56,332 nt of DNA, taken from sequence record PQ850607.1, one strand, 5' to 3'. A model generated the notes under the pieces. It ran no database searches. It had not been told where the DNA came from and saw only the letters and a list, made by a program, of their open reading frames with translations. Position numbers and translations under genes: made by a program. This DNA comes from Escherichia phage HelliStehle_Bas95. This document shows, one piece after another, positions 21,134-50,801 of this stretch; the first letter of the stretch is position 1, and every line of letters begins with the position of its first letter.

Positions 21134-22116
21134 TGAGCATCGGTGAAGCACTGGCGTCAATGTTTGCGGGTGCCGCTGGCGAAGCAGCAGGTAATCGGGC
21201 GGTAGAGATCCGCGACGAAGAAAAGGCACGCATCGCTGAAGCACGCGAAATGAAAATGATGGCACTCCAGCAGAAGTACCAGACGTCCGAGCGTGAGGCC
21301 AGTCAGGCTTACGGCACCGCTGAGCGTCAGGATACTCAGGGTTGGCAGTCTGGCGAGAAGCAGAAAGACCGTGACTTCCAGTCGTCTGAACGTGCTGCGT
21401 CTCAATCCTTCCAGGCGGTACAATCGGATAAAGCGCGTGCTTACCAGGACGCTAAAGAGAAGAAAGCGCAACTGGCGGCACAACAAGAATCCGCAGCGGC
21501 GGTAGGTAGTGTTGACGATTTAGGTAACGCTATCAAACTCGACGGTACACCTTATAAATTGGGTGGCCAGTGGTTGCGCGCTAAACAGTATGCTAACGGT
21601 CGCATTGTGGCTGAACCGCTGGGTGCTACCGCTGCCGAGAAGATGGATAGACGCGTAGCGCTTGAGAATGACGACGGTGACACGCAGAAGTCTCGTGATC
21701 TCACAATCGTTAAAGAAGGTATTAAATCCGGCGACACAACAGGTGTATTCGGTTCGTTTATCAACGCAGGCAACATGGCAGGTGACCTGGCGAGTGCTAA
21801 ACTCGGTAGCGAGAAATCACGCGATGTTTACAACGCTGTAAACCGTATCAATGGTGCGTTGTTGGCACAAGGCGTGGCCGATGCGAAAGCGATGGGTGCA
21901 TCGGGCATCAACACCGCGGCAGAAGCACAGATGTACTTCAAAGGATTGCCGTCGCTTGACTTGTCAAGCCCCGAAGCAGCAATGCGTGCCATTAACCAAA
22001 TCGATGCGTATAATAAAGACTTCAAGCAAAAGCAGCGGCAAGAAGTCGGGCTACCAGCGAACCCCGTGTCTAAACAAAGTAGCGACGGGTCGTTCGGTAG
22101 CAAATACGGTTATTGA
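21133..22116 (+). CDS. hypothetical virion protein
   Basis: 327 aa. Confidence 0.5.
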   Translation: MSIGEALASMFAGAAGEAAGNRAVEIRDEEKARIAEAREMKMMALQQKYQTSEREASQAYGTAERQDTQGWQSGEKQKDRDFQSSERAASQSFQAVQSDKARAYQDAKEKKAQLAAQQESAAAVGSVDDLGNAIKLDGTPYKLGGQWLRAKQYANGRIVAEPLGATAAEKMDRRVALENDDGDTQKSRDLTIVKEGIKSGDTTGVFGSFINAGNMAGDLASAKLGSEKSRDVYNAVNRINGALLAQGVADAKAMGASGINTAAEAQMYFKGLPSLDLSSPEAAMRAINQIDAYNKDFKQKQRQEVGLPANPVSKQSSDGSFGSKYGY

Positions 22117-22122
22117 TTCAAG

Positions 22123-22142
22123 CCGCCCTACGGGGCGGTTTT
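22123..22142 (+). terminator. intra-operon terminator/attenuator hairpin
   Basis: CCGCCC-tacg-GGGCGG followed by TTTT. Confidence 0.5.
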
Positions 22143-22157
22143 CACAGGAGTACTATC

Positions 22158-24362
22158 ATGGCACGTCCTTTTTCTGAAATCGCAGCATCCCCCGAGTTTC
22201 AGGCTGAAACACCGGAGACTCAGGAAGCAATCAAACAAGACTATTTCAATAAGGTGATCCGCCCACAGGTTGAGGCCAATGGGGACGACCCTGACGAGGT
22301 TTTCAACGACTTCTCGTCAAAGTACACATTCAAACAACCTGAAGCGCCTGTGCAGCAACCTGAAGCGCCTGTGCCGCAACAACAGGTTCAACCTTCACCG
22401 GAAGAACAGCAGGCCGCAGCAACCGTTCAGAACTATCTGAACAAGCCCGCTGAAACAGGTTACACCCTGGCCTCATCAGGTAGTGAACCACAGGAAACTA
22501 ATACCGGTATCATCGGTGCTATCAAAAATGCTGTTACTGGTGGTGACGCGGCGGAAGGTAGTGCCGCAAGTTTACCTCTGGCAGGTGAAGCGCCTGAGTT
22601 CTTTGGTAACGGTGTGGACGAAGAACTGAAGAACGGCGACGCACTAGACCAAATGCTCAATTGGGCTGGCAACAGGCTCGGAGGCATCGCTACGAATATG
22701 TTTGGTGGTGACGATTCAATCATCAAACGTGCGGAGTCTCGCGGTGGTAAGGTGTCACAGGATGAGCAGGGTAATGTAATCATTACTTTCCCGTCGGGTA
22801 AATATCAGGTTAACAAACCCGGTCTGGACATCAACGACGTTGCTAAATTTACGGCACAGGCAGCCCCTGCGGTCGCTACAGGTGGAGCGGGTGCAGCATT
22901 AGGTCTCGGCGGACGAATGGTCGCGCAGGGAGCGATTCAGGGCGGTTTAAACTACGCTCAGCAAAAAGCTGTAGAAGCTGGCGACGGTCAGAATGTTGAC
23001 ATGGGTGATGTTGCACTTAACGCGACACTGGGTGGTACTGGTGAGTTACTTGGCCCGGCCCTGCGCGGTGGTCGTGAAATTTTCAAACGCGGCTTAGGTA
23101 ATGCTGACGAGGCCACGAAAGAAGCGTTGAAGATTGCCGACGAAACAGGTATCCCAATCGCCACTTCCGACATGATTGCCGCAGGTGATCTCGGTGGCGG
23201 TGTAACAAAATACGCATCTGCGGTTACAGACAAGCTCGACCCGTTTGCCGCAGGTCGCCTGCGGCAACAGGAACTGATCCCGGAAAAGACCGCCGACATT
23301 TTTGTTGACCCTGAAGTCGCCGCAAAATATACAGACGAAGCTATGATTGAAGCGCTTGATAAAGGTAGTCGCGCACGCATGGCCGACGCTGGTAAACGCT
23401 TCGAAGAAGTGAAGACAGCTATGGGTGACCAGCCGATTCCCGTCCGAAATACCTCAGCGGCTATTGACGACGTGCTGAAAGAATGGGAACGCCCTGGGAC
23501 ACTCGTCGACAAAGGTGACATTGAATACCTGAAAGACATTCAGGCGAAGCTCACAGAAGCGCCACAAGATGTGATTATGCTTCGCGAAAACCGCACGCGC
23601 CTGCGTCAGTCGTTCGGATCCGGTATGAACAAAATGCTGGGTAAAAATGACCTTCAGAAAGCAGGGCGTAAAATTTACGACGCTTTGACTAAGGACATGC
23701 ACGAAGGTGTTGAAAACACGCTGGGTGCTGATGCTTTGACAACGCTCAAATCGGCCGACAAAGACTGGGCGTCTATCAATAGCGATTTAGGTTTCCAGAA
23801 AATTGCGGCAGCCGTTAAGAAAGGCGAGGCCGACCCCGCGCGACTGCGTGAAACGTTAACATCATTCGGCACGGGCGATCTACAAGCGCTTGACCGCAAT
23901 CTCAACGCCGAAGGTCGGAATATGATCAAAGGCGCTGTACATAAAAACTTAATGGCAGCTGCAACCAACGCTGACGGAGAATTTCAACCAGGGGCAATGT
24001 TGCGTGCCATTGAGAAAAACAAGGACGTCATCAAGCAGTTCTACACTCCCGAACAGGCCAAGCAGATTGAAGGTGTGAAGAAACTTCTGTCCACTGCGCG
24101 CGGTGCTAAGGCTGCAACGACCATTGCTAACAACGGTGGCTTGATGCTTCCTATCACTGCGGCGATGGGTGTTGGTTCGGCGGGAATCGGTGGTATTGCG
24201 GCGGCTGCGGGTGGTATTGCGGCTAAACGTTTGAGTAACTCTCGCCCAATGCGAAACGCGCTGATTCGTCTGTCCACCATGAAACCCGGCAGCATGGCCT
24301 ATTACAAGACAGTGAGACAAATCAACGCGATCATCGCGAATCAAGCATCTACCGACGAGTGA
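22158..24362 (+). CDS. large virion protein (possible internal/injection protein)
   Basis: 735 aa from ATG 22158 with SD ACAGGAG; last gene of the + morphogenesis block. Confidence 0.5.
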   Translation: MARPFSEIAASPEFQAETPETQEAIKQDYFNKVIRPQVEANGDDPDEVFNDFSSKYTFKQPEAPVQQPEAPVPQQQVQPSPEEQQAAATVQNYLNKPAETGYTLASSGSEPQETNTGIIGAIKNAVTGGDAAEGSAASLPLAGEAPEFFGNGVDEELKNGDALDQMLNWAGNRLGGIATNMFGGDDSIIKRAESRGGKVSQDEQGNVIITFPSGKYQVNKPGLDINDVAKFTAQAAPAVATGGAGAALGLGGRMVAQGAIQGGLNYAQQKAVEAGDGQNVDMGDVALNATLGGTGELLGPALRGGREIFKRGLGNADEATKEALKIADETGIPIATSDMIAAGDLGGGVTKYASAVTDKLDPFAAGRLRQQELIPEKTADIFVDPEVAAKYTDEAMIEALDKGSRARMADAGKRFEEVKTAMGDQPIPVRNTSAAIDDVLKEWERPGTLVDKGDIEYLKDIQAKLTEAPQDVIMLRENRTRLRQSFGSGMNKMLGKNDLQKAGRKIYDALTKDMHEGVENTLGADALTTLKSADKDWASINSDLGFQKIAAAVKKGEADPARLRETLTSFGTGDLQALDRNLNAEGRNMIKGAVHKNLMAAATNADGEFQPGAMLRAIEKNKDVIKQFYTPEQAKQIEGVKKLLSTARGAKAATTIANNGGLMLPITAAMGVGSAGIGGIAAAAGGIAAKRLSNSRPMRNALIRLSTMKPGSMAYYKTVRQINAIIANQASTDE

Positions 24363-24964
24363 TTACGGAAAGGGGTGTTGTACAGCCCCTTAATTTCTTT
24401 AATTGCTGCGGTCACGTTCGTAAACCAGACGATTCTAGCAAAGAACACGACCCCCAACGTACACCATGAAATGAACCATGTCATCGGGTCCATAACACCG
24501 AAGAATGCTGGCGCAAACGTCAGGGTGAACGCCATACCGACATAACCTACAACATTCATGACAGCATTAAACCACGACTTTTTAAGCATCTCGGTCATAG
24601 CAAAACGCATGGCTTCTTCTGTCAACTCTCCGCGATTAGTGCGCTTGATTTTGGATACGGTAGGTGTTTTCGACATGTTCAGGACAAACCACACACCACC
24701 AGTGATCACTAAAGTACCAACACTCAGTACATCAAAGGATAAACCTGCGACGATAAGTAACAGACCTACAGTCCAGTTGAAGGTGCGGGATGTACCGAAC
24801 AATGCGCCAAACACCGCCTGTGTAGTCCGCTGACCAACGTATTTCTTCAACGTCTCCAGGTCTTCAACTTTATAGCGATTTAACGACACTACGCGTACAG
24901 CGTGCAATCTGTTGTCAGCACCGTAGTATTTAACGTTTCTGTTTTTCTTCTCTGAATATTTCAT
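24341..24964 (-). CDS. polytopic membrane protein of unknown function
   Basis: 207 aa with about 4 hydrophobic helices; 3' end overlaps the convergent 735-aa gene. Confidence 0.5.
   Translation of the reverse strand: MKYSEKKNRNVKYYGADNRLHAVRVVSLNRYKVEDLETLKKYVGQRTTQAVFGALFGTSRTFNWTVGLLLIVAGLSFDVLSVGTLVITGGVWFVLNMSKTPTVSKIKRTNRGELTEEAMRFAMTEMLKKSWFNAVMNVVGYVGMAFTLTFAPAFFGVMDPMTWFISWCTLGVVFFARIVWFTNVTAAIKEIKGLYNTPFRNHSSVDA
24370..24391 (+). terminator. terminator hairpin closing the morphogenesis block
   Basis: AAGGGG...CCCCTT stem followed by AATTTCTTT. Confidence 0.5.
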
Positions 24965-25472
24965 AATTTTCTCTCACTATTCGTGTATAGCCGCGATTGT
25001 ATTTGAACTCTGGTCCCCAGTCTGTGACACGTGCCACATTGTGGAAATTATGCATTTCGATTCTGATTTGCGATTCTTTACAGCCAAACATGGCCGCTAT
25101 CTTGTCGCACCAGCTGAGATCCGTTTCAGCAATTCTGGCGACAACCTCATCGGCCACGGTTTGTGGAGAATCGATACCGTAAAGGTCTTCTATTTCCAGC
25201 CATAACTTAGTACCTGCCAGCCGCCTGGTCACCGACCACAACCATTGTGTATGTGCTGTTTGACCCAATGCTTTACGGGGTGACATATGCCCCAGTATTT
25301 CGTGCCTGGCGACTTCTTTCAGTCTGTAGGCAGGCATCGGGAAGAACACTACAGCTTCCTCACTGTACAGCGCCACCGCCTCAACGTTATAGGGCATCGG
25401 GTGAAACGACTCACACTTCAGATAATGAACGTCACATATACCGTCAACCAACCTGTCTACATAAGCACTCAT
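24930..25472 (-). CDS. HExxH-motif protein (putative ImmA/SprT-like zinc metallopeptidase)
   Basis: 180 aa containing VARHEILGHM; strong SD AAGGAGG; overlaps downstream membrane-protein gene. Confidence 0.45.
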   Translation of the reverse strand: MSAYVDRLVDGICDVHYLKCESFHPMPYNVEAVALYSEEAVVFFPMPAYRLKEVARHEILGHMSPRKALGQTAHTQWLWSVTRRLAGTKLWLEIEDLYGIDSPQTVADEVVARIAETDLSWCDKIAAMFGCKESQIRIEMHNFHNVARVTDWGPEFKYNRGYTRIVRENYEIFREEKQKR

Positions 25473-25492
25473 AGAGCCTCCTTTTCACGTCA

Positions 25493-25528
25493 AATATACT
25501 TGACGATGTTAACGCTGTCAAGTATATT
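25493..25528. promoter_or_regulatory. overlapping divergent sigma70-type promoters embedded in a 12-bp perfect inverted repeat
   Basis: + strand TTGACG-17-TATATT (25500-25528); - strand TTGACA-17-TATATT (25493-25522); AATATACTTGAC/GTCAAGTATATT dyad around GTTAAC. Confidence 0.6.
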
Positions 25529-25557
25529 CGGAAAACCACTAAACGGAGATCACATCA

Positions 25558-25769
25558 TGAATTTACCACCGTTACCACCATCGTCACAGATATTCAGAGA
25601 AACCCTGAAAATTGTCAGTGACGCTAAGTCACGCGGAGTAACCATCGGCAGCACTGTAAACTACGGCGGGTCGACGTATGTCGTCGATAAGTTTCACGGT
25701 AGGGCGGTACGTCTTCTTAACGACACAGGTGGCGCGATTATAGTTGACGTCAGAGAGGTCAACCGATAA
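25558..25769 (+). CDS. small hypothetical protein
   Basis: 70 aa; SD ACGGAG; downstream of + promoter. Confidence 0.5.
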
Positions 25770-25810
25770 GCTGTAGTTTCTCGATGACATTCCCTGTAGA
25801 TTGATAGCGC

Positions 25811-25841
25811 GCCCTTTCCACTTTGGTTAGGGCTTTTTTTT
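25811..25841 (+). terminator. rho-independent terminator
   Basis: GCCCT...AGGGC stem followed by T8. Confidence 0.5.
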
Positions 25842-26262: not shown

Positions 26263-26482
26263 TTCAATTCCTGTGGATGCGCCGTTACCTTTCATTGCCA
26301 TCGCTGTGTTATTCAACCTGGTGCGCCATGCGTTGAATCTTCACCACGAACGTAAGAAGGAAGCTGCGGAAGAGGCCACGAACGAAAGGATTGTTTTGTT
26401 GTCAGCTAAACTGGCGAGGGCGGAACAGACTATCGAGCACTTGAGGGAAGAAGTGGAACGCTTAGTAAACAAAGGGGCTTAA
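26249..26482 (+). CDS. small membrane-anchored coiled-coil protein
   Basis: 77 aa; N-terminal hydrophobic helix then charged helical region. Confidence 0.45.
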   Translation: MFELSSIPVDAPLPFIAIAVLFNLVRHALNLHHERKKEAAEEATNERIVLLSAKLARAEQTIEHLREEVERLVNKGA

Positions 26483-26493
26483 CGCCCCTTTTT
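26471..26493. terminator. bidirectional terminator shared by convergent genes
   Basis: AAAGGGGC-ttaac-GCCCCTTTTT; both stop codons (TAA 26480-26482 on +, TAA at 26479-26481 on -) lie in the loop. Confidence 0.6.
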
Positions 26494-26679
26494 AATACTC
26501 GCTGCAATTTTTAACTGCACAGGTACACGGTCAGGATCGCGGTGAATACCTACATCCGACGGTGCGGAAATGCGTAGACCGACGTTACCGTTCTCGGAGT
26601 TCTCCACCGTCACGACAATATCGTTACCGATGTAAACACTCTGACCTTCACGTCTGGTAATACGAAGTCCCTTAGCCAT
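26479..26679 (-). CDS. csrA: CsrA/RsmA-family RNA-binding regulator homologue
   Basis: 66 aa MAKGLRITRREGQSVYIGNDIVVTVENSENGNVGLRISAPSDVGIHRD matches CsrA pattern L-I-T-R-R-x-G-x4-I-G-x4-V-T-V...AP..V..HR. Confidence 0.75.
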   Translation of the reverse strand: MAKGLRITRREGQSVYIGNDIVVTVENSENGNVGLRISAPSDVGIHRDPDRVPVQLKIAASIKKGR

Positions 26680-26905
26680 TGATCTCCGCCTTAGCTTTCT
26701 TAGCTTTGATGACGCGACTAATCGCCACCAGTAAAGTGATAACACCAGACACGACCGGGAGATATTCCTCCGGTACCACAGCCTGGAATAAATGTGGGGC
26801 AGTTTGCCACACGATGAGTGCTGCGTCAGGTACGGTGGTCAGTACGGTGGTCACAGCGATACCAATAGTAATACCAGCATCATGCAATGCTTTAGATTTA
26901 TCCAT
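26672..26905 (-). CDS. holin-like small membrane protein
   Basis: 77 aa, two hydrophobic helices and basic C-terminus; immediately downstream of endolysin. Confidence 0.55.
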   Translation of the reverse strand: MDKSKALHDAGITIGIAVTTVLTTVPDAALIVWQTAPHLFQAVVPEEYLPVVSGVITLLVAISRVIKAKKAKAEING

Positions 26906-35867: not shown

Positions 35868-38732
35868 ATGGCAAAACGTACCGCACGCCCCTATCAGGCG
35901 AAGGTTATCAATGAGTATTTCACCTGCCTACACGCAGGCTATAAGGCACCTGTGGTGATTCTCCCTACAGGCGGCGGCAAGTGCCTGGGTAAAGACACAC
36001 CCGTAATGTTAGCTGACGGAACAGTCGTTCCCGTGCAAAACATCAAGGTTGGCGATCAGTTAATGGGGCCGGATTCCAAACCGCGCAACGTGCTGTCATT
36101 AGCCCGTGGCCGCGAGGAGTTGTTCCGCGTGACTCCTGTTAAAGGCGACAGCTATGTTGTGAACCGTAGTCACATCCTCAGTGTTCGTCACACTGAGACG
36201 GGTGAAATTGTAAACCTGTCAATTGACGAGTGGTTGAGTAAGTCCAACTGGTTCCGTCATTGTCACAAAGGGTGGCGTACAGGTGTCAACTTCAGCGGCC
36301 AGGTTGATGACCCGTATCTCCCACCTTACCTGTTAGGTCTGTGGTTGGGTGACGGAACCAGCATTCACGCGGAGATAACGTCCGAAGACAGAGAGATTGC
36401 TGACTATCTTCGCAACTTCGCTAACGAAACAGGTCAGGAAATCCGCATCTGCGAACAACCAGGAAACAATTCTCACATCATAAAGATTGTGAATAACTGG
36501 TCGCGCGGTAAAACCATGACATCTTTACGCGACAATAATCTTGTAGACAACAAGCATATACCTCACGTTTACCTGACAGCATCAGCAGATCAACGTAAAC
36601 AACTGTTAGCAGGTCTGATTGATTCCGATGGTTGCGAACATCACGGAGGTTACGACTTCTGTTTCAAATCGGAAGCACTGGTTGACGATGTAGCGTACCT
36701 GTGTCGTTCACTCGGTCTGGCTGCATACGTCACTCCGTGCAAGAAGACAATCAAGTCTCGTAACTTCACGGGCAATTACTTCCGTCTGTCAGTGTCCGGC
36801 GACTGTTCAGATATTCCGGTTCTGTTACCACGTAAAAAGTGTGAACCACGTCAACAAAAGAAAAATGTTTTGAACACAGGTATCACGGTCGAGTCAATCG
36901 GTGAAGGTGACTACTACGGATTTGAGATTGACGGTGATCACTTGTTCCTGTTGGGTGACTTCACTGTCACACATAACACATTCATCTTTACTGAGATCAT
37001 CTCCATGATGGCCGCCGCAGGACACCGCTGCATAGTAATGTGTCACCGCTCGGAACTGGTGCGCCAAATTTCAATGAGTCTGGCAACACAGGAGTTGCAT
37101 CACGACTTTATATGCAGCGACAAGACTCGCGCGATCTGCGGTAACGTGCAGCAGGCAGAGTTCGGTCGCACATATTATCGTCCCGGCGCACCTATCGTTG
37201 TCGCTTCAGTACAGACAATCAACGCACGTATCAAAGAAAACCTGAAGGCTACCCCTCAGCGTAAAGCTATGCGCGAGGCCACGTTGCGGTTACTCGACAA
37301 CACCACGTTCGCCGTATTCGATGAGTCGCACCACCTCACCCGTGAGAATACTTTCGGTCGCCCTCTACAATACATGCGTGACACCACAAAGTTTTTGCTG
37401 GTGACAGCAACACCGGAACGTGCCGACGGTAAAGGTATGGGTGCTGTGTCAATGCAGGGTAGCGGGATTGCCGACGTGGTAATCAAAGGACCGGAAATGC
37501 GCTGGCTGATTGACCAGGGCAACTTATGCGACTATAAAATTTATGAGCCACCTACGGAACAGGCGGACTTTACTAAGGTGCGCGTGACGGCCAGCGGGGA
37601 CTACAACCAGCAGGACCAGGCGCGTGAAATGGACAAGGCTAAAATCACTGGCGATGTAGTGCGCCACTACCAGGAACTCATCAATGGAAAACTCACAATT
37701 GTATTTTGCTGTGACATCTCCCACGCTCAGTCTGTGGCCGACGCTTACCAACGGGCTGGCATTCCTGCCGCCGTACTCCACGGCGGAGACGACGAATCGA
37801 CGCGTTTCAAGACCCTCCAGTCTTTCGAGCGTCGTGAAATACTCGTGCTGGTTACCGTCGATCTTGTCTCAGAAGGGTTCGACTTACCAGCGATTGAAGC
37901 AGCCCAATTCTTACGACGTACAATGTCGCTATCCTGGTTCATGCAGGCGTTCGGTCGTGTCCTACGCCCGTCGCCAGGAAAAGAATATGCTGTTATTCTC
38001 GACCATGTGGGAAACTGGAGGGAGCATGGCCTTCCCGATAAGCCACGCGTCTGGTCAATGGCAGACAGAAAAGGCGGCAAGTCTTCGAGCAGCGATGATG
38101 ACACAGTTCCGGTTACCCGTTGTCGTGTCCCTGTCGACAAGTCCGGCAGGTTCACACCTGAGCAATGCGCAGTTATGTCGGCTGACGAACAATTTAACAA
38201 CGGGATTCGACCATGTGGATACATCTACGAAATTACCGAGTCACGCTGTCCTGATTGCGGCTGCCGACAGCCTCTGGCCCCACGTGGTGAACCCGTCATG
38301 GTTAAAGGTCAATTAGTGGAAGTGTCCGCTGAAGAACTGGCAAAGATGCGAGCGGGTGACGAGTCCATCAGCGACCAGGCTGCGGTGTGGCGTCAGGAGA
38401 TTCAGGAAGATTTACTCAAACTGAAGATGTCACCCGAAGAATACGTAGCCCGGATGCACGTACCAGCTATCGCTAAGAACACTCAGATCAATAACCATCG
38501 CCGCTGGCGCGCAATGCACGCTACTCGTCAACTATTACAGGACGAATGGATGGAGCACCACCAGAAAGGTGATGTGACTAAGGAAGCCGCACAACAGCTT
38601 TTCTTAAACCGCTTCGGCATCAACGTCTACTATGCGCAGGTGCTGAAACCTAAAGAGTGCTTTGAACTGATTGAGAAAATCAAAGCACACCTCGAAGAGA
38701 TTCATGCCAAAGGAGGCTTGACCTATGCGTAA
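35868..38732 (+). CDS. SF2 DNA helicase interrupted by an intein
   Basis: Walker A ILPTGGGK|(intein)|TFIF restored as GGGKT; DESHH motif II; VTATPER motif III; QAFGRVLR motif VI. Confidence 0.85.
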   Translation: MAKRTARPYQAKVINEYFTCLHAGYKAPVVILPTGGGKCLGKDTPVMLADGTVVPVQNIKVGDQLMGPDSKPRNVLSLARGREELFRVTPVKGDSYVVNRSHILSVRHTETGEIVNLSIDEWLSKSNWFRHCHKGWRTGVNFSGQVDDPYLPPYLLGLWLGDGTSIHAEITSEDREIADYLRNFANETGQEIRICEQPGNNSHIIKIVNNWSRGKTMTSLRDNNLVDNKHIPHVYLTASADQRKQLLAGLIDSDGCEHHGGYDFCFKSEALVDDVAYLCRSLGLAAYVTPCKKTIKSRNFTGNYFRLSVSGDCSDIPVLLPRKKCEPRQQKKNVLNTGITVESIGEGDYYGFEIDGDHLFLLGDFTVTHNTFIFTEIISMMAAAGHRCIVMCHRSELVRQISMSLATQELHHDFICSDKTRAICGNVQQAEFGRTYYRPGAPIVVASVQTINARIKENLKATPQRKAMREATLRLLDNTTFAVFDESHHLTRENTFGRPLQYMRDTTKFLLVTATPERADGKGMGAVSMQGSGIADVVIKGPEMRWLIDQGNLCDYKIYEPPTEQADFTKVRVTASGDYNQQDQAREMDKAKITGDVVRHYQELINGKLTIVFCCDISHAQSVADAYQRAGIPAAVLHGGDDESTRFKTLQSFERREILVLVTVDLVSEGFDLPAIEAAQFLRRTMSLSWFMQAFGRVLRPSPGKEYAVILDHVGNWREHGLPDKPRVWSMADRKGGKSSSSDDDTVPVTRCRVPVDKSGRFTPEQCAVMSADEQFNNGIRPCGYIYEITESRCPDCGCRQPLAPRGEPVMVKGQLVEVSAEELAKMRAGDESISDQAAVWRQEIQEDLLKLKMSPEEYVARMHVPAIAKNTQINNHRRWRAMHATRQLLQDEWMEHHQKGDVTKEAAQQLFLNRFGINVYYAQVLKPKECFELIEKIKAHLEEIHAKGGLTYA
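35982..36977 (+). mobile_element. intein (332 aa) with LAGLIDADG homing endonuclease domain
   Basis: Starts with Cys after GGGK, ends His-Asn before Thr; two LAGLIDADG motifs LLGLWLGDGTS and LLAGLIDSDGC. Confidence 0.85.
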
Positions 38733-43071: not shown

Positions 43072-43372
43072 GGCGGCTGGCCTCCTGTGCATCAACGATT
43101 GCTTCGTTTGTGGCGACAATGAGATCCACCACATGTTTTGCGAGTACGGTAAGATTCCCGTGTCGCGCTTGATTCACCACGTTGATCGCGGTGTTCTCAT
43201 CCGTCATCATTTCCACGCCGTCAATCAGGTCGACGATGAATTTGTGGCGGTCATACTCCCGGTTAAAGCTGGCGATGTCCGGGTGGTTATCAAGATGAAA
43301 GCAACACCTGTATCCTTTAGGTAAATTGGTAACGCGATCACCTACTCGCGGCCCGTCGATTAAAAGAATCAT
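43061..43372 (-). CDS. hypothetical protein
   Basis: start at MILLIDGP...; ATGA overlap with HNH gene. Confidence 0.45.
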   Translation of the reverse strand: MILLIDGPRVGDRVTNLPKGYRCCFHLDNHPDIASFNREYDRHKFIVDLIDGVEMMTDENTAINVVNQARHGNLTVLAKHVVDLIVATNEAIVDAQEASRHVR

Positions 43373-43974
43373 GCTTTGTGTTCTCCGTGGTTGGCAAATT
43401 CTCCATGTGCCAGTCGTTGAGCCTGTAACCATTCCACGGCGAGGCGTTTACCTTCTTCAGTTAAAGGGAAGTATTTAACATTCTTGCATACTCCCGCACG
43501 ATAACACTTTCCTTTATTTACAGACAAACCTTTGATACCCGTCGAACTATCAAACCGCGTTTGTCTATTCCAACTGTTCTCGTCCGGTTCAGCTTCCCGT
43601 AAATTAGAGATTCGATTATCATCACGAATCCCGTTAAGATGGTCTAACCATCCGTTAGGTGGTTCACCGTAATACATTTCCCATATAATACGGTGAACCT
43701 TCCAACACTTGCCGTCAAACGTGCATTGTCTATAACCTTTCGGATCAAGCGAACCAACCTCATCACCAGCTTTAACGCGACGAGCCGTTGGTCTTTTCCA
43801 GAACAGCTTCCCGGTAACAGGGTCGTAACGAAAATGATGCTCAAATAAATGTAGCGACAATTTGAGCCTCCTTGCGATGTGATCTGTGAATGGTAACGAC
43901 TCCAGCCGTTTCAAGTTTCTTCGCCGCCTTGCGCACATGCTCTTTGTCATAGCCGGTATAGGAGGCCAGTTCAT
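43369..43974 (-). CDS. HNH homing endonuclease with AP2-like DNA-binding domain
   Basis: GKLFWK...GYRQC..DGK.WKVHRIIWEMYYGEPP.GW.DHLNG.RDDNR.SNL; start uncertain (overlaps upstream ORF). Confidence 0.7.
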   Translation of the reverse strand: MNWPPIPAMTKSMCARRRRNLKRLESLPFTDHIARRLKLSLHLFEHHFRYDPVTGKLFWKRPTARRVKAGDEVGSLDPKGYRQCTFDGKCWKVHRIIWEMYYGEPPNGWLDHLNGIRDDNRISNLREAEPDENSWNRQTRFDSSTGIKGLSVNKGKCYRAGVCKNVKYFPLTEEGKRLAVEWLQAQRLAHGEFANHGEHKA

Positions 43975-44730: not shown

Positions 44731-44759
44731 AATATAGGTTAGTTAAATCTGACTGTCAA
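44731..44759 (-). promoter_or_regulatory. near-consensus sigma70 promoter TTGACA-17-TATATT
   Basis: read on - strand. Confidence 0.6.
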
Positions 44760-44764
44760 TAGAT

Positions 44765-45460
44765 TTATTTATAGGCTTCCAGTGCTAGTCTACAAATATG
44801 TGATCTAACGCAATCATTTTCATGGAAGAGAATACCCTGAACGTCGTCAGAGTCATGGAAACGGGCCAGCGCGTCGCTCAGACCGTCTTGCATACCTTTC
44901 GGTAAATCACACTGAGTGACGTCACCGTTGACGACCACGATACAGTTTTCCCCGATACGCGTGAGGAAAGTTTTCATCTGTTTTACGGTTGTGTTCTGCG
45001 CTTCGTCGAGGATGATGAACGCGTTGTCAAAGCTGCGGCCACGCATGTAGGCGAACGGTGCAATCTCAATCTTACCGTGGTCCATGCAGTATTTGAAATG
45101 CGTCTCGCCCAAGCGTCGCTTCAGGGTTTCGGATACAGGTTTAAAATACGGATCAAACTTAGCGTTAATGTCACCCGGCAGGAAGCCCATGTCTTCATCC
45201 GCGTTGAGTACAGGGCGGGTAACGATGATTCGTTCAACGACTTTGTCAGTGAGGTACTCAGCAGCCTTACACGCCGCGATAAATGTCTTCCCGCATCCGG
45301 CAGCACCGCTGGCGAAAATAAGGGATTTGGTTCGAATGGCCTCAAGATATGACTCCTGATTTACGGTGCGCGGTTCAATCGGTGATTTATCTGCGCGGGT
45401 GACGGGGGAAGGGTTGGTGTTAAGCTCGACAACTTCAGCAGTGTTGCGTTTCTTACCCAT
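44765..45460 (-). CDS. phoH: PhoH-like ATPase
   Basis: GAAGCGKTF Walker A, IILDEAQN, GDVTQCDL; start at ATG 45460 with SD GAGGTG. Confidence 0.8.
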   Translation of the reverse strand: MGKKRNTAEVVELNTNPSPVTRADKSPIEPRTVNQESYLEAIRTKSLIFASGAAGCGKTFIAACKAAEYLTDKVVERIIVTRPVLNADEDMGFLPGDINAKFDPYFKPVSETLKRRLGETHFKYCMDHGKIEIAPFAYMRGRSFDNAFIILDEAQNTTVKQMKTFLTRIGENCIVVVNGDVTQCDLPKGMQDGLSDALARFHDSDDVQGILFHENDCVRSHICRLALEAYK

Positions 45461-45505
45461 AGAGCACCTCGTTTGAGAGGGGCGCGGGATTGCGCCCATC
45501 GTTTA

Positions 45506-45706
45506 CTACATCCAGCCAGCAATCGCCCCCGGTAACCAGGTGAAAATGCCTACGATGCGTATGACAGTTTCAGCCGTGGAGTCGGACGCGTTACCACCAC
45601 CAATATACGCCAGGCAGTGTGCAAGGTTCAAGAACCAGCCAATCCAGCCGAATATAAAGAGTCCGACGGTACTGAACGCTGCGAACAACCCGAGGTATTT
45701 ACCCAT
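45506..45706 (-). CDS. small membrane protein
   Basis: 66 aa hydrophobic. Confidence 0.5.
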   Translation of the reverse strand: MGKYLGLFAAFSTVGLFIFGWIGWFLNLAHCLAYIGGGNASDSTAETVIRIVGIFTWLPGAIAGWM

Positions 45707-45960
45707 TACTCCGTCTCCACGCTGTAACCCTGATCGCGAACGTAGTCTAAGATTTCGTTCAGACTAACGCCACCTTTGTTAATCCAGTCTTCAAAACCAC
45801 CCATAGCGTTTAGAAGCGTATCCGCACCGTATTCATCAACAATGATTTCGGCGTCCACGCAGTCGGCCAGTGCAAGACCTTCGATTGCCATTGTGATTTC
45901 GGCATAGTTTGCTACTTCAACTTTAACGCTTTGTGCTACAACCTGAATGTCGATACTCAT
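45706..45960 (-). CDS. hypothetical acidic protein
   Basis: 84-aa ORF. Confidence 0.5.
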   Translation of the reverse strand: MSIDIQVVAQSVKVEVANYAEITMAIEGLALADCVDAEIIVDEYGADTLLNAMGGFEDWINKGGVSLNEILDYVRDQGYSVETE

Positions 45961-46442
45961 GATTTATGACTCCCGCGTGGTCGCGTCACGTGACGCGTGA
46001 TGTTATGCTGTTTACACAGCTTGTAAATGCGTTCCGGGTACACCCCAATCTCACCAGCGTAATCGCTGGCGGTCATGGTTAACATCGCGTGACGCAGATG
46101 ATTAATGTCGACCTTCACGCCCTTCTCAGGACTTTTCCAGCCGTACTTCTTGCGCACTGTGTCAAGCTGGCGCGGGAGTATTCCCAGCAGTTCGGCAGCT
46201 TCAGCACGCGGCTTACGCTCGACAATCATTTTGTTCATCGGCGTGTTTGCCACTGGCACCCGGTACCGTTCGATAGGCTCCCAGTTCTGCCAGACTACCC
46301 GCAGCCTGTAACGATGGTTAACGCGCTGGACCGCCCGGTATTTCCCCTTATACGTCACGACACAATAAGGTTTACCGAGTACCGCAGACATGCGTTCAGC
46401 CTGCTTGATGGCCTCGTCCAGTGTGTCACAGGTGATTGCCAT
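45957..46442 (-). CDS. hypothetical protein (possible DNA-binding)
   Basis: 161-aa ORF. Confidence 0.5.
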   Translation of the reverse strand: MAITCDTLDEAIKQAERMSAVLGKPYCVVTYKGKYRAVQRVNHRYRLRVVWQNWEPIERYRVPVANTPMNKMIVERKPRAEAAELLGILPRQLDTVRKKYGWKSPEKGVKVDINHLRHAMLTMTASDYAGEIGVYPERIYKLCKQHNITRHVTRPRGSHKS

Positions 46443-46633
46443 TAGCGACGCGCCTTACCACGGCTATTGCCAGGGAGCGTACGGACTTCTAAAGGAATGA
46501 TGCGAACACCTTTACGGGTATAGCGCTTCGTGTACGTTACGATCTCGGTGCGCTGCGGTGGTGCCAGGTCACGCAAAGCGGCGGAGAAAGGTGTAGAGAA
46601 AGCGTTACCGAACAGCATTTTAAATAAGCTCAT
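46442..46633 (-). CDS. small basic protein
   Basis: 63 aa. Confidence 0.45.
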   Translation of the reverse strand: MSLFKMLFGNAFSTPFSAALRDLAPPQRTEIVTYTKRYTRKGVRIIPLEVRTLPGNSRGKARR

Positions 46634-46668
46634 TTTGATTTTCCTATTGTCGCGTTTGTAGAATAATG

Positions 46669-46697
46669 AATTTAGTATAGTCGTCCCTGACTGTCAA
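46669..46697 (-). promoter_or_regulatory. sigma70-type promoter TTGACA-17-TAAATT
   Basis: shares ACTTGACAGTCAG core with promoter at 44731-44759. Confidence 0.5.
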
Positions 46698-46701
46698 GTA
46701 A

Positions 46702-47331
46702 TTAATCCGCAGTAATGAAAGAATCTACATCCGGCGGCCACGTGTCTTGCGGCTGCGGCGGTAATGCAGGTTTGTTATTGAGTTTGGCGTAAGCCTTGCA
46801 CACCCACTCAACCTGGTACCGGGCATCATGCAGCGCGTTATGATACTGGATGTGCGCTGGACGCGTGCGGGGCATCTGCATACCTGCAAGCCACATGATA
46901 GTTCTGACGTCTCGCACGTTCCAGAATTTGTACGGGTATTCGTGACCAAACTTCCCAATCTGCGGCGTTGTCTGACGCATCCACCACTCGATAATCGGAA
47001 TGTCAAATACGCTACCATTAGCCCACACCTGACAATCACTCAGGTTGTATTTGACAAACCAGTCACGGAACGACCGTGATGCGTGGCGCGGATCGGACTT
47101 CCCGTTGTAGGCTTCTTCGCGTGCGGCGGCGTCCTGACCTTCCCACCACTTCAAGGTATTGATGTCAGCCAGACCATACTGTTGCGCTTTGTCTTTATCC
47201 ATGCGCTCGTAGAACTCTGCTACAATATCGCCCGTGGTGATGTCGAACGCACAGGCACCGATCGTTAACAGTGGTGCGTTAGGCGTGGTCGCCAACGTTT
47301 CACAGTCAATCATTACATGAAGGTTACTCAT
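46702..47331 (-). CDS. DnaQ-like 3'-5' exonuclease (DEDDh)
   Basis: VMIDCETLA (Exo I), FDIPIIEWW (Exo II), YHNALHDARY (Exo III). Confidence 0.7.
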   Translation of the reverse strand: MSNLHVMIDCETLATTPNAPLLTIGACAFDITTGDIVAEFYERMDKDKAQQYGLADINTLKWWEGQDAAAREEAYNGKSDPRHASRSFRDWFVKYNLSDCQVWANGSVFDIPIIEWWMRQTTPQIGKFGHEYPYKFWNVRDVRTIMWLAGMQMPRTRPAHIQYHNALHDARYQVEWVCKAYAKLNNKPALPPQPQDTWPPDVDSFITAD

Positions 47332-47558
47332 GGTTTAATCTCCATTAATGAGTCTTCGTATTCAATGTCACCAGGGCGGACATAATCGACAGCGTGACAT
47401 TGAGAATCATCACCCAGCTTGATTCTCGGCAACCACACGCCGCCTGATAACTTAGGTTCACGATAGAACGCGTAAATTTCCCCGTCGTGATCAGTTGCCA
47501 GGTGTGTAGCGTTATCCGGTACATTAACGTCATGACCAAAGTATTTTACAGTTTTCAT
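47328..47558 (-). CDS. hypothetical protein
   Basis: 76-aa ORF. Confidence 0.45.
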   Translation of the reverse strand: MKTVKYFGHDVNVPDNATHLATDHDGEIYAFYREPKLSGGVWLPRIKLGDDSQCHAVDYVRPGDIEYEDSLMEIKP

Positions 47559-48049
47559 TTATTGCTATCCTCATCCAGTACAGCAGCACACAGGCTATCA
47601 ACCTGCACCACGATCACCCGGTCTGAAAGCGCTTCGAACGCTGCGCAAACTTCAGGGTCATCATCAAAGCACATAAACTTCTCAGTGCCGTAGGTCTTCA
47701 GCAGGCGGCGCAGGGCGTCAGTTTTGAAATCAGCCGCGCTGCGGTGGTCGTCCATCGGTCGCATCTGCAACTCAATGAGCGTGCGGCTCAACTCCAGATC
47801 GTTATGCAGACGGTCCATCGTCGGCAGGTAGGCAGACTTGCCGCGCCCGGTGAGGAAGCGCACATCTTCACCATTAGCCAACAGTTGCTTGATGATAGCC
47901 AGCGTATTAGGGATCGGCTTATCACCACGGCACGCCCCGTTAAACTGCGCCCAGGCTTCGGTGTCGTTGCGTTTGTCGCCAGTCGGCATCAGGTGCGCGC
48001 GGTGGCGATTGTCGTACAAGGTGCCGTCCAAATCACAGATGTAAATCAT
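47555..48049 (-). CDS. HAD-superfamily phosphatase (nucleotidase / 3'-phosphatase-like)
   Basis: DLDGTL motif I, LTGR motif II, FDDD motif IV. Confidence 0.65.
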   Translation of the reverse strand: MIYICDLDGTLYDNRHRAHLMPTGDKRNDTEAWAQFNGACRGDKPIPNTLAIIKQLLANGEDVRFLTGRGKSAYLPTMDRLHNDLELSRTLIELQMRPMDDHRSAADFKTDALRRLLKTYGTEKFMCFDDDPEVCAAFEALSDRVIVVQVDSLCAAVLDEDSNK

Positions 48050-48384
48050 TTACGCTTACTCCACAGTTTTAAGGTTTCGGTAAAAATATACTCGGCCAGG
48101 TAGGTTAACGCTTCATGGTTGTCATATTCAACCTTAATCCCTACGTGATTTAAAACATCCCATGCTGAGTGTATAGCTTCGTGCATCACCAGCGACGGTG
48201 AAGGCTCCCTGATATACACCACGCACGGCCCTATGTGCTCAACGGTAGCGAAGGCGTTTGTTAACACATAGTCATCACCCTTGCGGTCCGGGAAGTCCTT
48301 CAGGTATTTTTCAAGGCTGAAGTAGACCCGGAGTTTTCCGGGGTATATTTTGAATTTGATGATACCGTCTACCATAGTACCCAC
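48046..48384 (-). CDS. hypothetical protein
   Basis: 112-aa ORF. Confidence 0.5.
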   Translation of the reverse strand: MGTMVDGIIKFKIYPGKLRVYFSLEKYLKDFPDRKGDDYVLTNAFATVEHIGPCVVYIREPSPSLVMHEAIHSAWDVLNHVGIKVEYDNHEALTYLAEYIFTETLKLWSKRK

Positions 48385-48569
48385 TCGTTTCTCTCTTCAC
48401 CCGGTACCAGCCAGCCTTCTTTGACCAGTTGATCACACGTTTCATCAAGACTGGCGGGGACAACCTTCGCCCCTGTCAGCGCCCAGCGGTGGCCGCCTAC
48501 TTGCTGCGGGTAGTGGTGCAGTTTCGCACCCGCTTTAAGCTCGACCGTCAGCACGTAGCCGCGCATCAT
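48369..48569 (-). CDS. hypothetical protein
   Basis: 66-aa ORF. Confidence 0.45.
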   Translation of the reverse strand: MMRGYVLTVELKAGAKLHHYPQQVGGHRWALTGAKVVPASLDETCDQLVKEGWLVPGEERNEWVLW

Positions 48570-48847
48570 GATTTGTTGATTTCCACGCCGTTGATAGTGA
48601 CGTGCAGGATAACGTTCGGTTCATCCTTACGCAACGTGTTTACGGTACGTTTCGCCAGGTCCGCGCAGTCTGCCACGTATACGCGTTGTTCACCGTTAAC
48701 ATCAACCAGACAACCTTCAACTGTGCGATCGTTACCGACAATATCAATGTTGTCGAACTTCATTTCGACAACACCGTTAGCGTGCGCTACGTTCATACCT
48801 ACAGCCATTGCCGCGTATGCAGCCGCAATCATAACAATGTATTTCAT
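48566..48847 (-). CDS. secreted protein with N-terminal signal peptide
   Basis: MKYIVMIAAAYAAMAVGMNVAHA signal-like N-terminus; 93 aa. Confidence 0.5.
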   Translation of the reverse strand: MKYIVMIAAAYAAMAVGMNVAHANGVVEMKFDNIDIVGNDRTVEGCLVDVNGEQRVYVADCADLAKRTVNTLRKDEPNVILHVTINGVEINKS

Positions 48848-48877
48848 CTCGATACCCTCTGTGTTGTTGGTGAACTA

Positions 48878-48906
48878 AATATAATTGATGGCTTCCATGC
48901 CGTCAA
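48878..48906 (-). promoter_or_regulatory. near-consensus sigma70 promoter TTGACG-17-TATATT
   Basis: TACTTGACG core as in other early promoters. Confidence 0.55.
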
Positions 48907-48915
48907 GTAAATCAT

Positions 48916-49125
48916 TTACCAACTAGCTAAACATTTATCAGTCGGTTGGCGAATAATCCAGTTACCATCAGTAAACTTAATCGTCAAAAATGTTTCGTGG
49001 CGGTTGCCTTTAATCTCCTTAACTTTTAGCGATACTTTAATGCACCAGCGCGGTTCGAAAACACGATCACCCGGATTAAGTTTGCCGTAGGTAGTCAGGC
49101 GGAAGTGTGGTTTATTTGTTGCCAT
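48916..49125 (-). CDS. hypothetical protein
   Basis: start at MATNKPHF; uncertain. Confidence 0.4.
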   Translation of the reverse strand: MATNKPHFRLTTYGKLNPGDRVFEPRWCIKVSLKVKEIKGNRHETFLTIKFTDGNWIIRQPTDKCLASW

Positions 49126-50681: not shown

Positions 50682-50801
50682 TACAACCGCCTTAATTGCG
50701 TGATGATGTCGTGAAAGGTGCCGTAGTCACATGTCATGATGTACAGCGTCGACAGAATAAACAGCGCGATTGACAGTTTAAGCGCCGCGCTTGCGAATAC
50801 G

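What the first reader, a model, noticed from the sequence alone, without database searches (positions are those of the whole stretch)
25493..25528. Two mutually overlapping divergent promoters built into one inverted repeat
AATATACTTGAC-gatgttaacgct-GTCAAGTATATT is a 12-bp perfect inverted repeat. Read rightward it gives TTGACG-17-TATATT; read leftward it gives TTGACA-17-TATATT. Each promoter's -35 lies inside the other's spacer/-10, so RNA polymerase cannot occupy both, and the dyad is an ideal site for a dimeric regulator. It could act as a compact bistable or autoregulatory switch for the island.
Basis: seen in the sequence. Interest (0 to 1): 0.55.

Follow-up and report, generated by a model that had tools for sequence, protein, structure and literature searches.

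The report
Two overlapping back-to-back phage promoters
A 36-base symmetric stretch in a coliphage genome is best read as two strong, ordinary host-type promoters that fire in opposite directions and share the same DNA; this is a tidy example of a known arrangement, not a new kind of switch.

Summary
The inverted repeat is real: AATATACTTGAC at 25493-25504 and GTCAAGTATATT at 25517-25528, 12/12 complementary. Both sigma-70 readings hold. TTGACG-17-TATATT points right and TTGACA-17-TATATT points left. Each faces a gene with a Shine-Dalgarno site at a sensible distance.

The window is a relative of the virulent E. coli podophage genus Xuquatrovirus. The repeat lies inside a three-gene cassette of unknown function that the two sequenced members, Pondi and PTXU04, lack.

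Five distinct versions of the site were recovered from metagenomes. In them all 24 hexamer positions are invariant, and all 12 other positions vary (P = 8e-10). The varying positions include the central GTTAAC and both linker bases. The linker changes are not compensatory. Selection therefore acts on four promoter hexamers, not on the palindrome. The same TAC-TTGAC-N17-TATNTT design recurs at the phage's early promoters.

Mutual exclusion of RNA polymerase is inferred from the geometry and fits published work on overlapping promoters. The proposed dimeric regulator, bistability and autoregulation have no support: no DNA-binding gene was found, and this phage group shows no lysogeny.

One feature is unexplained: an invariant TGAC next to the leftward -10. 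Nothing here was tested experimentally.

Verdict: a new member of a known kind, of modest interest.

The parts
25493..25528 (.). The 36-bp core. It consists of 12-bp perfect inverted-repeat arms (25493-25504 and 25517-25528) around a 12-bp centre (25505-25516) that contains GTTAAC.
   Evidence: Four of the five haplotypes lack the central GTTAAC, and two of the five lack the perfect 12/12 symmetry.
25500..25528 (+). Rightward promoter P_right: -35 TTGACG (25500-25505), 17-nt spacer, -10 TATATT (25523-25528). The predicted start is near A25535.
   Evidence: 10/12 match. Both hexamers are invariant in 5 haplotypes. The start site is predicted from the usual 7-nt rule and has not been measured.
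25493..25521 (-). Leftward promoter P_left: -35 TTGACA (25521-25516), 17-nt spacer, -10 TATATT (25498-25493). The predicted start is near 25486 or 25485.
   Evidence: 11/12 match. Both hexamers are invariant in 5 haplotypes. The start site is predicted, not measured.
25489..25504 (.). A 16-bp near-palindrome, GTCAAATATACTTGAC, centred on the P_left -10. Its outer GTCA (25489-25492, TGAC on the - strand) is invariant although it lies outside the hexamers. It is either the discriminator and start region of P_left or half of an unidentified operator.
   Evidence: only copy in the window. (T99 G100 A101 C102 invariant). Unexplained.
25557..25769 (+). Gene for a 70-aa protein, served by P_right. 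Its Shine-Dalgarno site GGAGA lies at 25545-25549 and the predicted leader is about 22 nt.
   Evidence: 80-93% identical in relatives. The model has pLDDT 86 and shows a helix plus a small SH3-like barrel; there is no significant PDB match. No family hit.
25811..25841 (+). Intrinsic terminator: GCCCU-UU-CCA/CUU/UGG-UU-AGGGC followed by U8. It closes the P_right unit and also marks the start of homology with phage Pondi.
24930..25472 (-). Gene for a 180-aa protein with a conserved HEILGH (HExxxH) motif; it is the first gene of the P_left unit. Its Shine-Dalgarno site AGGAGG lies at 25482-25477 and the predicted leader is about 13-14 nt.
   Evidence: There is only one remote homologue among 1.84 billion cluster representatives. 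No family hit. The model has pLDDT 46 and is unusable.
24341..24964 (-). Gene for a 207-aa protein with long hydrophobic stretches, probably a membrane protein; it is the second gene of the P_left unit. It overlaps the 180-aa gene by 35 nt and converges on the 749-aa structural-region gene.
   Evidence: The gene order is conserved in L002-L008. No family hit. The membrane assignment rests on reading the sequence only.

Best explanation
The element is the shared control region of a small accessory cassette in a Xuquatrovirus-like virulent coliphage. It holds two near-consensus promoters for host sigma-70 RNA polymerase, placed back to back and overlapping by 22 bp. P_left drives the 180-aa HExxxH protein gene and the 207-aa putative membrane protein gene. 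P_right drives a single-gene unit, the 70-aa protein gene followed by its terminator. The inverted repeat is a by-product of the layout. Two copies of the phage's standard promoter (TAC-TTGAC-N17-TATATT) sit in opposite orientation, so each -10 lies one base from the other's -35. That alone makes 11 of the 12 arm bases complementary. Because the two polymerase footprints overlap almost completely, only one promoter can be occupied at a time. The two units therefore share one initiation site, and each polymerase acts as a transient repressor of the opposite promoter. The output ratio is set by the relative binding and escape rates. The layout gives a compact two-way promoter that should be active as soon as host polymerase meets the DNA, without any dedicated regulator. 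Shown here: the sequence, the geometry, the gene arrangement, the conservation pattern and the similarity to the phage's other promoters. Inferred: the start sites, the promoter activity, the mutual exclusion and the early timing.
For: Sequence and scan. Conservation: five haplotypes, with flanking proteins 80-93% identical to the window's, keep all 24 hexamer positions. All 12 other core positions vary, with no indel in the 36 bp although the flanks have one. The probability of that split is 1/C(36,12) = 8e-10. Both spacers stay at exactly 17 nt in every haplotype. Each promoter faces an ORF with a conserved Shine-Dalgarno site and start codon. Six intergenic minus-strand promoters at 44759-55875 all have 17-nt spacers. 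Four of them (46697, 48906, 51987, 54040) carry TAC immediately before TTGAC(A/G) and a TA(A/T)(A/C)TT -10, as both promoters here do. An overlapping pair of this quality never arose in 300 shuffles. A terminator lies just after the 70-aa gene. No cassette gene resembles a DNA-binding protein. Literature: polymerase at one promoter excludes polymerase at an overlapping one and can act as a repressor (PMC3167631; PMC4207663). Such competition becomes appreciable only when the promoters are strong (PMC12825309), and these are near consensus.
Against: There are no transcription data of any kind; the start sites, activity and timing are predictions. The relatives are close (five haplotypes, one lineage), so the conservation test cannot tell RNA polymerase apart from another protein that recognises the same 11 bases per arm. 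An invariant TGAC just downstream of the P_left -10 is not explained by the hexamer model. The predicted P_left leader is short (13-14 nt), with only 4 nt between the Shine-Dalgarno site and the ATG. How this phage group transcribes its genes is unstudied, and a phage factor could modify polymerase specificity.
Confidence: 0.72

Rival explanations
1. The element is an operator as well as a promoter. An unidentified dimeric or tetrameric regulator, from the phage or the host, binds TCAA/TTGA boxes. The candidate sites are the 16-bp palindrome GTCAAATATACTTGAC (25489-25504) over the P_left -10 and the 36-bp dyad. Binding would shut one or both promoters and impose timing or autoregulation.
For: The arms form a perfect 12-bp dyad. 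An invariant TGAC lies outside the hexamers and completes a GTCAA-N6-TTGAC palindrome. In unrelated soil-bacterial loci the same 36-bp layout carries TCAA-ATATAT-TTGA palindromes on both -10 elements. In those loci it sits next to a gene for a protein with a weak HTH match, or in L022 a clear Xre-type HTH, where autoregulation is plausible. In phage P22, Arc represses the overlapping divergent promoters Pant and Pmnt (PMC2724298).
Against: The conserved positions coincide exactly with the four sigma-70 hexamers. Both linker bases inside the proposed half-sites change without compensation, and the centre is free to vary. The right arm has no outer TTGA box. The motif occurs once in the window, so there is no regulon. 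No HTH or RHH protein passed a Pfam threshold among the cassette genes or the 20 larger ORFs scanned. The 70-aa protein models as a helix plus an SH3-like barrel. The arm centres are 24 bp apart, about 2.3 helical turns, which is awkward for one dimer.
Confidence: 0.17
2. The element is an RNA or DNA hairpin, for example a processing site, a stability element or a terminator for read-through transcripts, or a cruciform. On this view the promoter-like hexamers are incidental.
For: The + strand RNA of 25480-25545 folds to -17.5 kcal/mol, with z = -5.3 against shuffles.
Against: No U-tract follows the stem on either strand. The only variable stem pair changes without compensation: C-G becomes a C/T mismatch in L003-L005 and a G/T pair in L006-L007. 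The other 11 stem pairs are invariant, so the alignment offers no compensatory change to support a helix, while the loop turns over completely. If the predicted promoters work, neither of their transcripts contains the hairpin. The fold score follows automatically from the inverted repeat.
Confidence: 0.05
3. It is a chance palindrome in an AT-rich intergenic spacer and has no function.
For: A 12-bp perfect inverted repeat appears somewhere in 12.7% of shuffled windows. A partial look-alike at 48878-48913 has one good promoter and only a poor mirror image.
Against: The 24/24 against 0/12 split in conservation. Its position exactly between divergent genes that have Shine-Dalgarno sites. No shuffle in 300 produced an overlapping promoter pair of this quality.
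Confidence: 0.03

Closest known systems
Overlapping divergent (tail-to-tail) promoters with RNA polymerase competition. Examples: the synthetic pairs and E. coli survey of Bendtsen et al. 2011 (PMC3167631), pLS20 Pc/Pr (PMC4207663), P22 Pant/Pmnt (PMC2724298) and aroP P1/P3 (cited in PMC3167631).
   Same: Two divergent promoters have overlapping polymerase footprints, so one bound polymerase excludes the other. About 14% of E. coli 'forward' promoters are reported to overlap a reverse promoter. Both promoters here are near consensus, which is the regime where interference is expected.
   Different: The natural examples named in those papers involve a regulator: RcoLS20 at pLS20, Arc at P22, TyrR at aroP. 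At pLS20 the two promoters differ several hundred-fold in strength. Here the two promoters are nearly equal (11/12 and 10/12), the layout is almost perfectly symmetric, and no regulator was found. The exact base-pair geometry of the named examples was not checked here.
Bidirectional promoters in the sense of the Grainger laboratory, where shared or overlapping -10 elements drive divergent starts (bioRxiv 10.1101/2020.01.31.928960; PMC12825309).
   Same: A pseudo-symmetric DNA segment lets polymerase bind in either orientation. One binding event blocks the other. Competition becomes significant only at high promoter activity.
   Different: In that class the divergent starts are most often 18 bp apart, with 10 and 23 bp also common, because the two -10 elements coincide (PMC12825309). 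Here the -10 elements are separate and lie outermost, and the predicted starts are about 49 bp apart. Each promoter has a full -35 that lies in the other's spacer. By that paper's definition these are two separate promoters, although they clash.
Phage 'morons': accessory genes carrying their own promoter and terminator, inserted between conserved phage genes. This concept is recalled from the lambdoid phage literature and was not checked here.
   Same: The cassette genes are ORFans, have their own promoters and a terminator, and are absent from the two sequenced genus members at the same genomic position.
   Different: The host is a virulent podophage, not a prophage. The cassette comes together with a different upstream 749-aa gene, not as a clean insertion. 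It uses a two-way promoter.
The same 36-bp layout in unrelated bacteria. One case is a soil metagenome family lying between a SocA/Panacea-domain gene and a gene for a 145-156-aa protein with a weak HTH match. Another is a Ktedonobacteraceae MAG with an Xre-type HTH gene (L009-L023).
   Same: The pattern AATATAnTTGAC-N12-GTCAAnTATATT is identical, it lies between divergent genes, and the central 12 nt vary.
   Different: The genes are not homologous to the phage cassette. There the arms extend by TCA/TGA, so that each -10 sits in a 14-bp palindrome. The gene next to the element there encodes a protein with a weak or, in L022, clear HTH match, and it starts 6-14 nt after the -10, so its mRNA is probably leaderless. 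The phage has only one such extension and no HTH gene. Those loci were found with a pattern that fixes the hexamers, so their hexamer identity says nothing about conservation.

Membership tests
Sigma-70 (housekeeping) promoter, for each of the two | A -35 hexamer close to TTGACA and a -10 hexamer close to TATAAT, separated by 16-18 bp | tested here: met
   TTGACA-17-TATATT (11/12) and TTGACG-17-TATATT (10/12).
Sigma-70 (housekeeping) promoter, for each of the two | Hexamers conserved in relatives while neighbouring bases drift | tested here: met
   24/24 hexamer positions are invariant and 12/12 other core positions vary across 5 haplotypes, P = 8e-10.
Sigma-70 (housekeeping) promoter, for each of the two | Placed upstream of a gene on the same strand at a workable distance | tested here: met
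   The predicted leaders are about 22 nt (70-aa gene, GGAGA) and about 13-14 nt (180-aa gene, AGGAGG).
Sigma-70 (housekeeping) promoter, for each of the two | A transcription start about 7 nt downstream of the -10, dependent on the hexamers | not testable with these tools
   No RNA data are available. This needs 5' end mapping or in vitro transcription.
Overlapping divergent promoters with polymerase competition | The reverse promoter's start lies within about -80 to +20 of the forward start, the criterion of PMC3167631 | tested here: met
   The predicted starts at about 25535 and about 25486 put the reverse start near -49. The core elements overlap by 22 bp (25500-25521).
Overlapping divergent promoters with polymerase competition | Weakening one promoter raises output of the other | not testable with these tools
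   This is inferred from geometry and literature only.
Bidirectional promoter (Grainger definition) | The two -10 elements coincide on opposite strands, with divergent starts about 10, 18 or 23 bp apart | tested here: not met
   The -10 elements lie at 25493-25498 and 25523-25528, 24 bp apart edge to edge, and the predicted starts are about 49 bp apart (definition from PMC12825309).
Repressor operator (dimeric regulator site) | Dyad symmetry maintained in relatives, including positions that do not belong to promoter hexamers | tested here: not met
   The linker bases change C to G and G to T without compensation, and the central GTTAAC is lost. One exception is the invariant TGAC at 25489-25492.
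Repressor operator (dimeric regulator site) | A cognate DNA-binding protein encoded nearby, or repeated operators in the genome | tested here: not met
   No HTH or RHH protein passed threshold among the cassette genes or the 20 larger ORFs scanned. The 70-aa protein model has no DNA-binding fold. The motif is unique in the window. ORFs shorter than 90 aa outside the cassette region, and host factors, were not examined.
Intrinsic terminator | A GC-rich stem followed by a U-tract | tested here: not met
   The stem is AT-rich and no T-run follows it on either strand.

The most novel reading that the evidence does not exclude
The 36-bp layout AATATAnTTGAC-N12-GTCAAnTATATT could be a distinct class of symmetric two-way promoter that arises repeatedly. 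Each -10 abuts the other's -35, and the starts lie about 49 bp apart. It would then be separate from the shared -10 bidirectional promoters described so far, whose starts are 10, 18 or 23 bp apart. It would have arisen independently in a coliphage cassette and in soil-bacterial modules that pair a SocA/Panacea gene with a gene for a protein with a weak HTH match. In it, polymerase competition alone would couple the two outputs negatively, and regulators, where present, would bind palindromes centred on the -10 elements.
Probability: 0.3. Interest if true: 0.45.

Novelty: new member of a known kind. Interest (0 to 1): 0.3.

Why it matters
The result gives a clean, testable annotation for a phage group whose biology is almost unstudied: two promoters, two transcription units and one terminator. 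It also marks a three-gene ORFan cassette as an independently expressed accessory module that deserves functional testing. More generally, it is a natural case of two nearly equal, near-consensus promoters forced to share one site. That is the regime in which polymerase competition is predicted to matter, so it would suit quantitative tests of promoter interference. It does not open a new mechanism.

Tried and rejected
1. DNA searches of 24900-25800 against phage records (distant mode) and of 24341-25790 against complete E. coli genomes found nothing. The cassette is absent from both collections.

2. Looking up the window's exact 180-aa protein in the assembly collection found nothing.

3. The 36-bp pattern has no match in IMG/VR viral contigs. 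A protein-guided scan of the same collection for the 180-aa protein also found nothing. All relatives come from Logan and ENA assemblies.

4. Pfam, PHROGs, PADLOC and NCBIfam gave no hit for the three cassette proteins.

5. An exhaustive HMMER scan of 1.84 billion representatives with the 180-aa protein found only one remote homologue (34% identity). Its contig is cut 24 nt upstream of the gene, so the promoter region could not be compared.

6. The AlphaFold model of the 180-aa protein has pLDDT 46, so no fold search was run on it. A profile search against PDB sequences gave nothing meaningful.

7. A Foldseek search with the 70-aa model gave only weak matches (E of 6e-3 or higher) to the beta domain of MscS-type channels and other small barrels. 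This gives no functional assignment.

8. The idea that the cassette is a simple insertion into a conserved gene was rejected. The upstream 749-aa protein shows no similarity to the giant protein that occupies this position in Pondi.

9. The extra TTGAC on the - strand (25494-25489) was considered as the -35 of a third promoter and rejected. No -10 follows it at 16-18 nt; that position lies inside the coding sequence.

10. FNR-, CRP- and ArcA-type host sites were considered from memory. The spacing and orientation do not fit, and the centre is not conserved. No formal test was run.

Full report
**1. The observation**

The sequence is exactly as described. AATATACTTGAC occupies 25493-25504, gatgttaacgct occupies 25505-25516, and GTCAAGTATATT occupies 25517-25528. 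The repeat finder reports 12-nt arms, 100% complementary, 12 nt apart. Counting the central GTTAAC, it also reports a 21-nt palindrome at 86%.

The promoter scan finds both readings:
- On the + strand: TTGACG (25500-25505), 17 nt, TATATT (25523-25528), matching 10/12.
- On the - strand: TTGACA (25521-25516), 17 nt, TATATT (25498-25493), matching 11/12. This is the best score between 20000 and 32000.

Each -35 sits one base from the other promoter's -10, at positions -14 to -19 of that promoter.

This is the only perfect 12-bp inverted repeat with a loop of 40 nt or less in the window. By itself that is not rare, because 12.7% of 300 Markov shuffles contain one. An overlapping divergent pair of promoters at 10/12 or better was seen in none of the 300 shuffles.

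**2. Context**

The window is a phage genome.
- It carries an SU10-type portal, a helicase interrupted by an intein, a D5-type primase, a GH108 endolysin, a holin, and RdgC-like, MazG-like and CsrA-like genes.
- Its only DNA relatives in the phage collection are Escherichia phages Pondi and PTXU04, genus Xuquatrovirus. Identity is 84.7-94% over the parts that align.
- The literature describes these as podoviruses of about 60 kb whose biology is largely unknown (PMC11990801).

Homology with Pondi stops at about 25779, just right of the 70-aa gene. In Pondi a giant protein gene (6.6 kb, about 2,190 aa) occupies the position. The window instead has an unrelated 749-aa gene followed by three ORFan genes.

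The three ORFan genes are arranged around the repeat:
- On the - strand lie a 180-aa protein gene (25472-24930, with a conserved HEILGH motif) and a 207-aa hydrophobic protein gene (24964-24341). They overlap by 35 nt.
- On the + strand lies a 70-aa protein gene (25557-25769).
- The 180-aa gene has AGGAGG 4 nt before its ATG. The 70-aa gene has GGAGA 7 nt before its ATG.
- With the usual 7-nt rule the starts would be at about 25486 or 25485 (-) and about 25535 (+). That gives leaders of about 13-14 nt and about 22 nt.
- A good intrinsic terminator lies at 25811-25841: GCCCU..AGGGC followed by eight U. It follows the 70-aa gene and is conserved in Pondi. The rightward unit is therefore essentially a single gene.

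**3. Comparative test**

The 180-aa and 70-aa proteins have close homologues, 80-93% identical, on metagenome contigs with the same gene order. These contigs give five distinct versions of the intergenic region: the window, L002, L003-L005, L006-L007 and L008.

Across the 36-bp core the pattern is sharp:
- All 24 hexamer positions are invariant.
- All 12 other positions vary. These are the two linker bases and the ten central bases.
- The chance that 12 variable columns all avoid 24 pre-specified columns out of 36 is 1/C(36,12) = 8e-10.
- Both spacers stay at exactly 17 nt, and the core has no indel although the flanks have one.
- The central GTTAAC is lost in the other four haplotypes.
- The linker changes are not complementary. 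The pair C/G becomes C/T in L003-L005 and G/T in L006-L007. The perfect 12-bp dyad therefore exists in only three of the five haplotypes.

Selection thus acts on the four hexamers and their spacing. It does not act on the palindrome or on a hairpin.

**4. Relation to the phage's other promoters**

The minus-strand block of small genes at 42.8-56 kb has intergenic promoters at 44759, 46697, 48906, 51987, 54040 and 55875. All have 17-nt spacers. Four of them read (A/T)TAC-TTGAC(A/G)-N17-TA(A/T)(A/C)TT.

Both promoters of the repeat fit this design, including the TAC before the -35. The repeat is therefore two copies of the phage's standard host-type promoter in mirror orientation. That placement makes 11 of the 12 arm bases complementary by construction.

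A partial look-alike at 48878-48913 has one good leftward promoter and a poor mirror image. No rightward gene follows it.

**5. Mechanism**

The best-supported reading is two overlapping, back-to-back sigma-70 promoters. They serve two small transcription units of an accessory cassette.

The predicted starts lie about 49 bp apart, so the two polymerase footprints overlap almost entirely. One sigma region 4 would have to sit where the other polymerase holds its spacer and -10. Simultaneous occupancy is therefore very unlikely. This step is inferred, not shown.

It agrees with published work:
- Overlapping promoters bind one polymerase at a time, and polymerase can act as a repressor of the other promoter (PMC3167631; PMC4207663).
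- Such competition becomes appreciable only at high promoter activity (PMC12825309). Both promoters here are near consensus.

The expected outcome is a fixed division of initiations between the two directions. Memory is not expected.

**6. What is not supported**

No evidence was found for a dedicated dimeric regulator, for autoregulation or for bistability.
- The three cassette proteins hit nothing in Pfam, PHROGs, PADLOC or NCBIfam.
- The 70-aa protein models confidently (pLDDT 86) as a helix plus a small SH3-like barrel. It has only weak matches to solved structures.
- The 180-aa protein has one remote homologue among 1.84 billion representatives, and its model is unusable.
- None of the 20 larger ORFs scanned outside the cassette passed a Pfam threshold for a DNA-binding regulator domain. 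One match to a ribbon-helix-helix model fell just below threshold.
- The TTGAC/GTCAA arrangements occur only here in the window.
- The element spans 36 bp with arm centres 24 bp apart. That is long for a single-dimer operator.

**7. An unexplained residue**

On the leftward side, the four bases after the -10 (TGAC on the - strand, 25492-25489) are invariant in all haplotypes. With the rightward -35 they form GTCAAATATACTTGAC, which is self-complementary at 14 of 16 positions.

This could be the discriminator and start region of P_left. It could also be half of an operator for an unknown factor. I keep the second possibility as the main rival, at about 0.17.

**8. The same layout elsewhere**

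The exact pattern AATATAnTTGAC-N12-GTCAAnTATATT occurs in 12 JGI metagenome contigs and 5 MAG contigs. None is related to the phage.

Most of these belong to one soil family.
- The element lies between a SocA/Panacea-domain gene (Pfam E = 1e-13) and a gene for a protein of 145-156 aa with a weak HTH match.
- That second gene starts only 6-14 nt after the -10.
- In this family both arms extend to TCAAATATATTTGAC, so each -10 sits in a 14-bp palindrome.

A Ktedonobacteraceae contig has the layout next to a clear Xre-type HTH gene.

These loci were found with a pattern that fixes the hexamers. They do not count as conservation evidence. They do show that the geometry recurs in nature, and that regulators may be attached to it there.

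**9. Comparison with known systems**

The element works like the known overlapping divergent promoter pairs: P22 Pant/Pmnt, pLS20 Pc/Pr, aroP P1/P3 and the synthetic pairs of Bendtsen et al.

It does not meet the definition of the recently described bidirectional promoters. In those the -10 elements coincide and the starts are 10, 18 or 23 bp apart (PMC12825309).

It differs from the classical pairs in three ways: the near-perfect symmetry, the near-equal strength of the two promoters, and the absence of any visible regulator.

**10. Verdict**

The promoter reading is strongly supported by comparative evidence. The switch and regulator reading is not supported.

The element is a new member of a known kind and of modest interest (0.3). 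All functional statements still need 5' end mapping and reporter or in vitro transcription tests.

Noticed in passing
L009-L025 (e.g. L009:2689-2724, L023:5271-5306, L022:2843-2878): The exact 36-bp layout AATATAnTTGAC-N12-GTCAAnTATATT occurs in 17 unrelated metagenome and MAG loci. Most belong to a soil family in which the arms extend to TCAAATATATTTGAC. There the element lies between a SocA/Panacea-domain gene and a gene for a 145-156-aa protein with a weak HTH match, which starts 6-14 nt after the -10 and is probably leaderless. L022 has a clear Xre-type HTH gene next to it.
   Followed up: partly
window 25489-25492: An invariant TGAC (on the - strand) lies immediately downstream of the leftward -10 and completes the 16-bp near-palindrome GTCAAATATACTTGAC. 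The right side of the element has no counterpart. Its role is unexplained.
   Followed up: partly
window 22113-25779: This segment holds the 749-aa gene plus the three-gene ORFan cassette. It replaces a single giant gene (6.6 kb, about 2,190 aa) found at the same position in phages Pondi and PTXU04. The 749-aa protein shows no similarity to the giant protein.
   Followed up: partly
window 24930-25472 (-): The 180-aa ORFan has a conserved HEILGH (HExxxH, not HExxH) motif and predicted strands before a long helix, which hints at a small metallohydrolase. It has only one remote homologue (34% identity) among 1.84 billion representatives, found in the same gene context (L026).
   Followed up: partly
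window 35868-38732 (+): The replicative-type helicase gene (ResIII and Helicase_C domains) is interrupted by an intein with Hint and LAGLIDADG homing-endonuclease domains.
   Followed up: no
window 51925-52000 and 53985-54060: Two copies of an almost identical segment of about 70 bp comprise a promoter (AAATTAC-TTGACG-17-TATCTT) and a leader with GGGAGGC, in front of two different small minus-strand genes. A promoter-leader module appears to have been duplicated in the presumed early region.
   Followed up: no
window 48878-48913: A partial look-alike of the finding with the same 12-12-12 geometry: AATATAATTGAT-N12-GTCAAGTAAATC. Only the leftward promoter (TTGACG-17-TATATT) is good, and no rightward gene follows.
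   Followed up: yes
window 26479-26745 (-): A phage-encoded CsrA homologue (Pfam CsrA, E = 2.6e-12) lies next to the holin and endolysin genes. It is conserved in Pondi, PTXU04 and all the metagenomic relatives.
   Followed up: no
window 24370-24391 (+): A terminator-like hairpin (AAGGGGTGTTGTACAGCCCCTT followed by a weak T-run) starts 8 nt after the stop of the 749-aa gene. It lies inside the 3' end of the convergent 207-aa gene, so it may end the structural operon and limit antisense read-through into the cassette.
   Followed up: no
window 43369-43974, 44765-45499, 46702-47331, 49112-49768 (-): The minus-strand gene block at 42.8-56 kb, presumed early, encodes an HNH endonuclease, a PhoH-like ATPase, an Rv2179c-like 3'-5' exoribonuclease and an Nmad5 (nucleotide-modification-associated) protein.
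   Followed up: no
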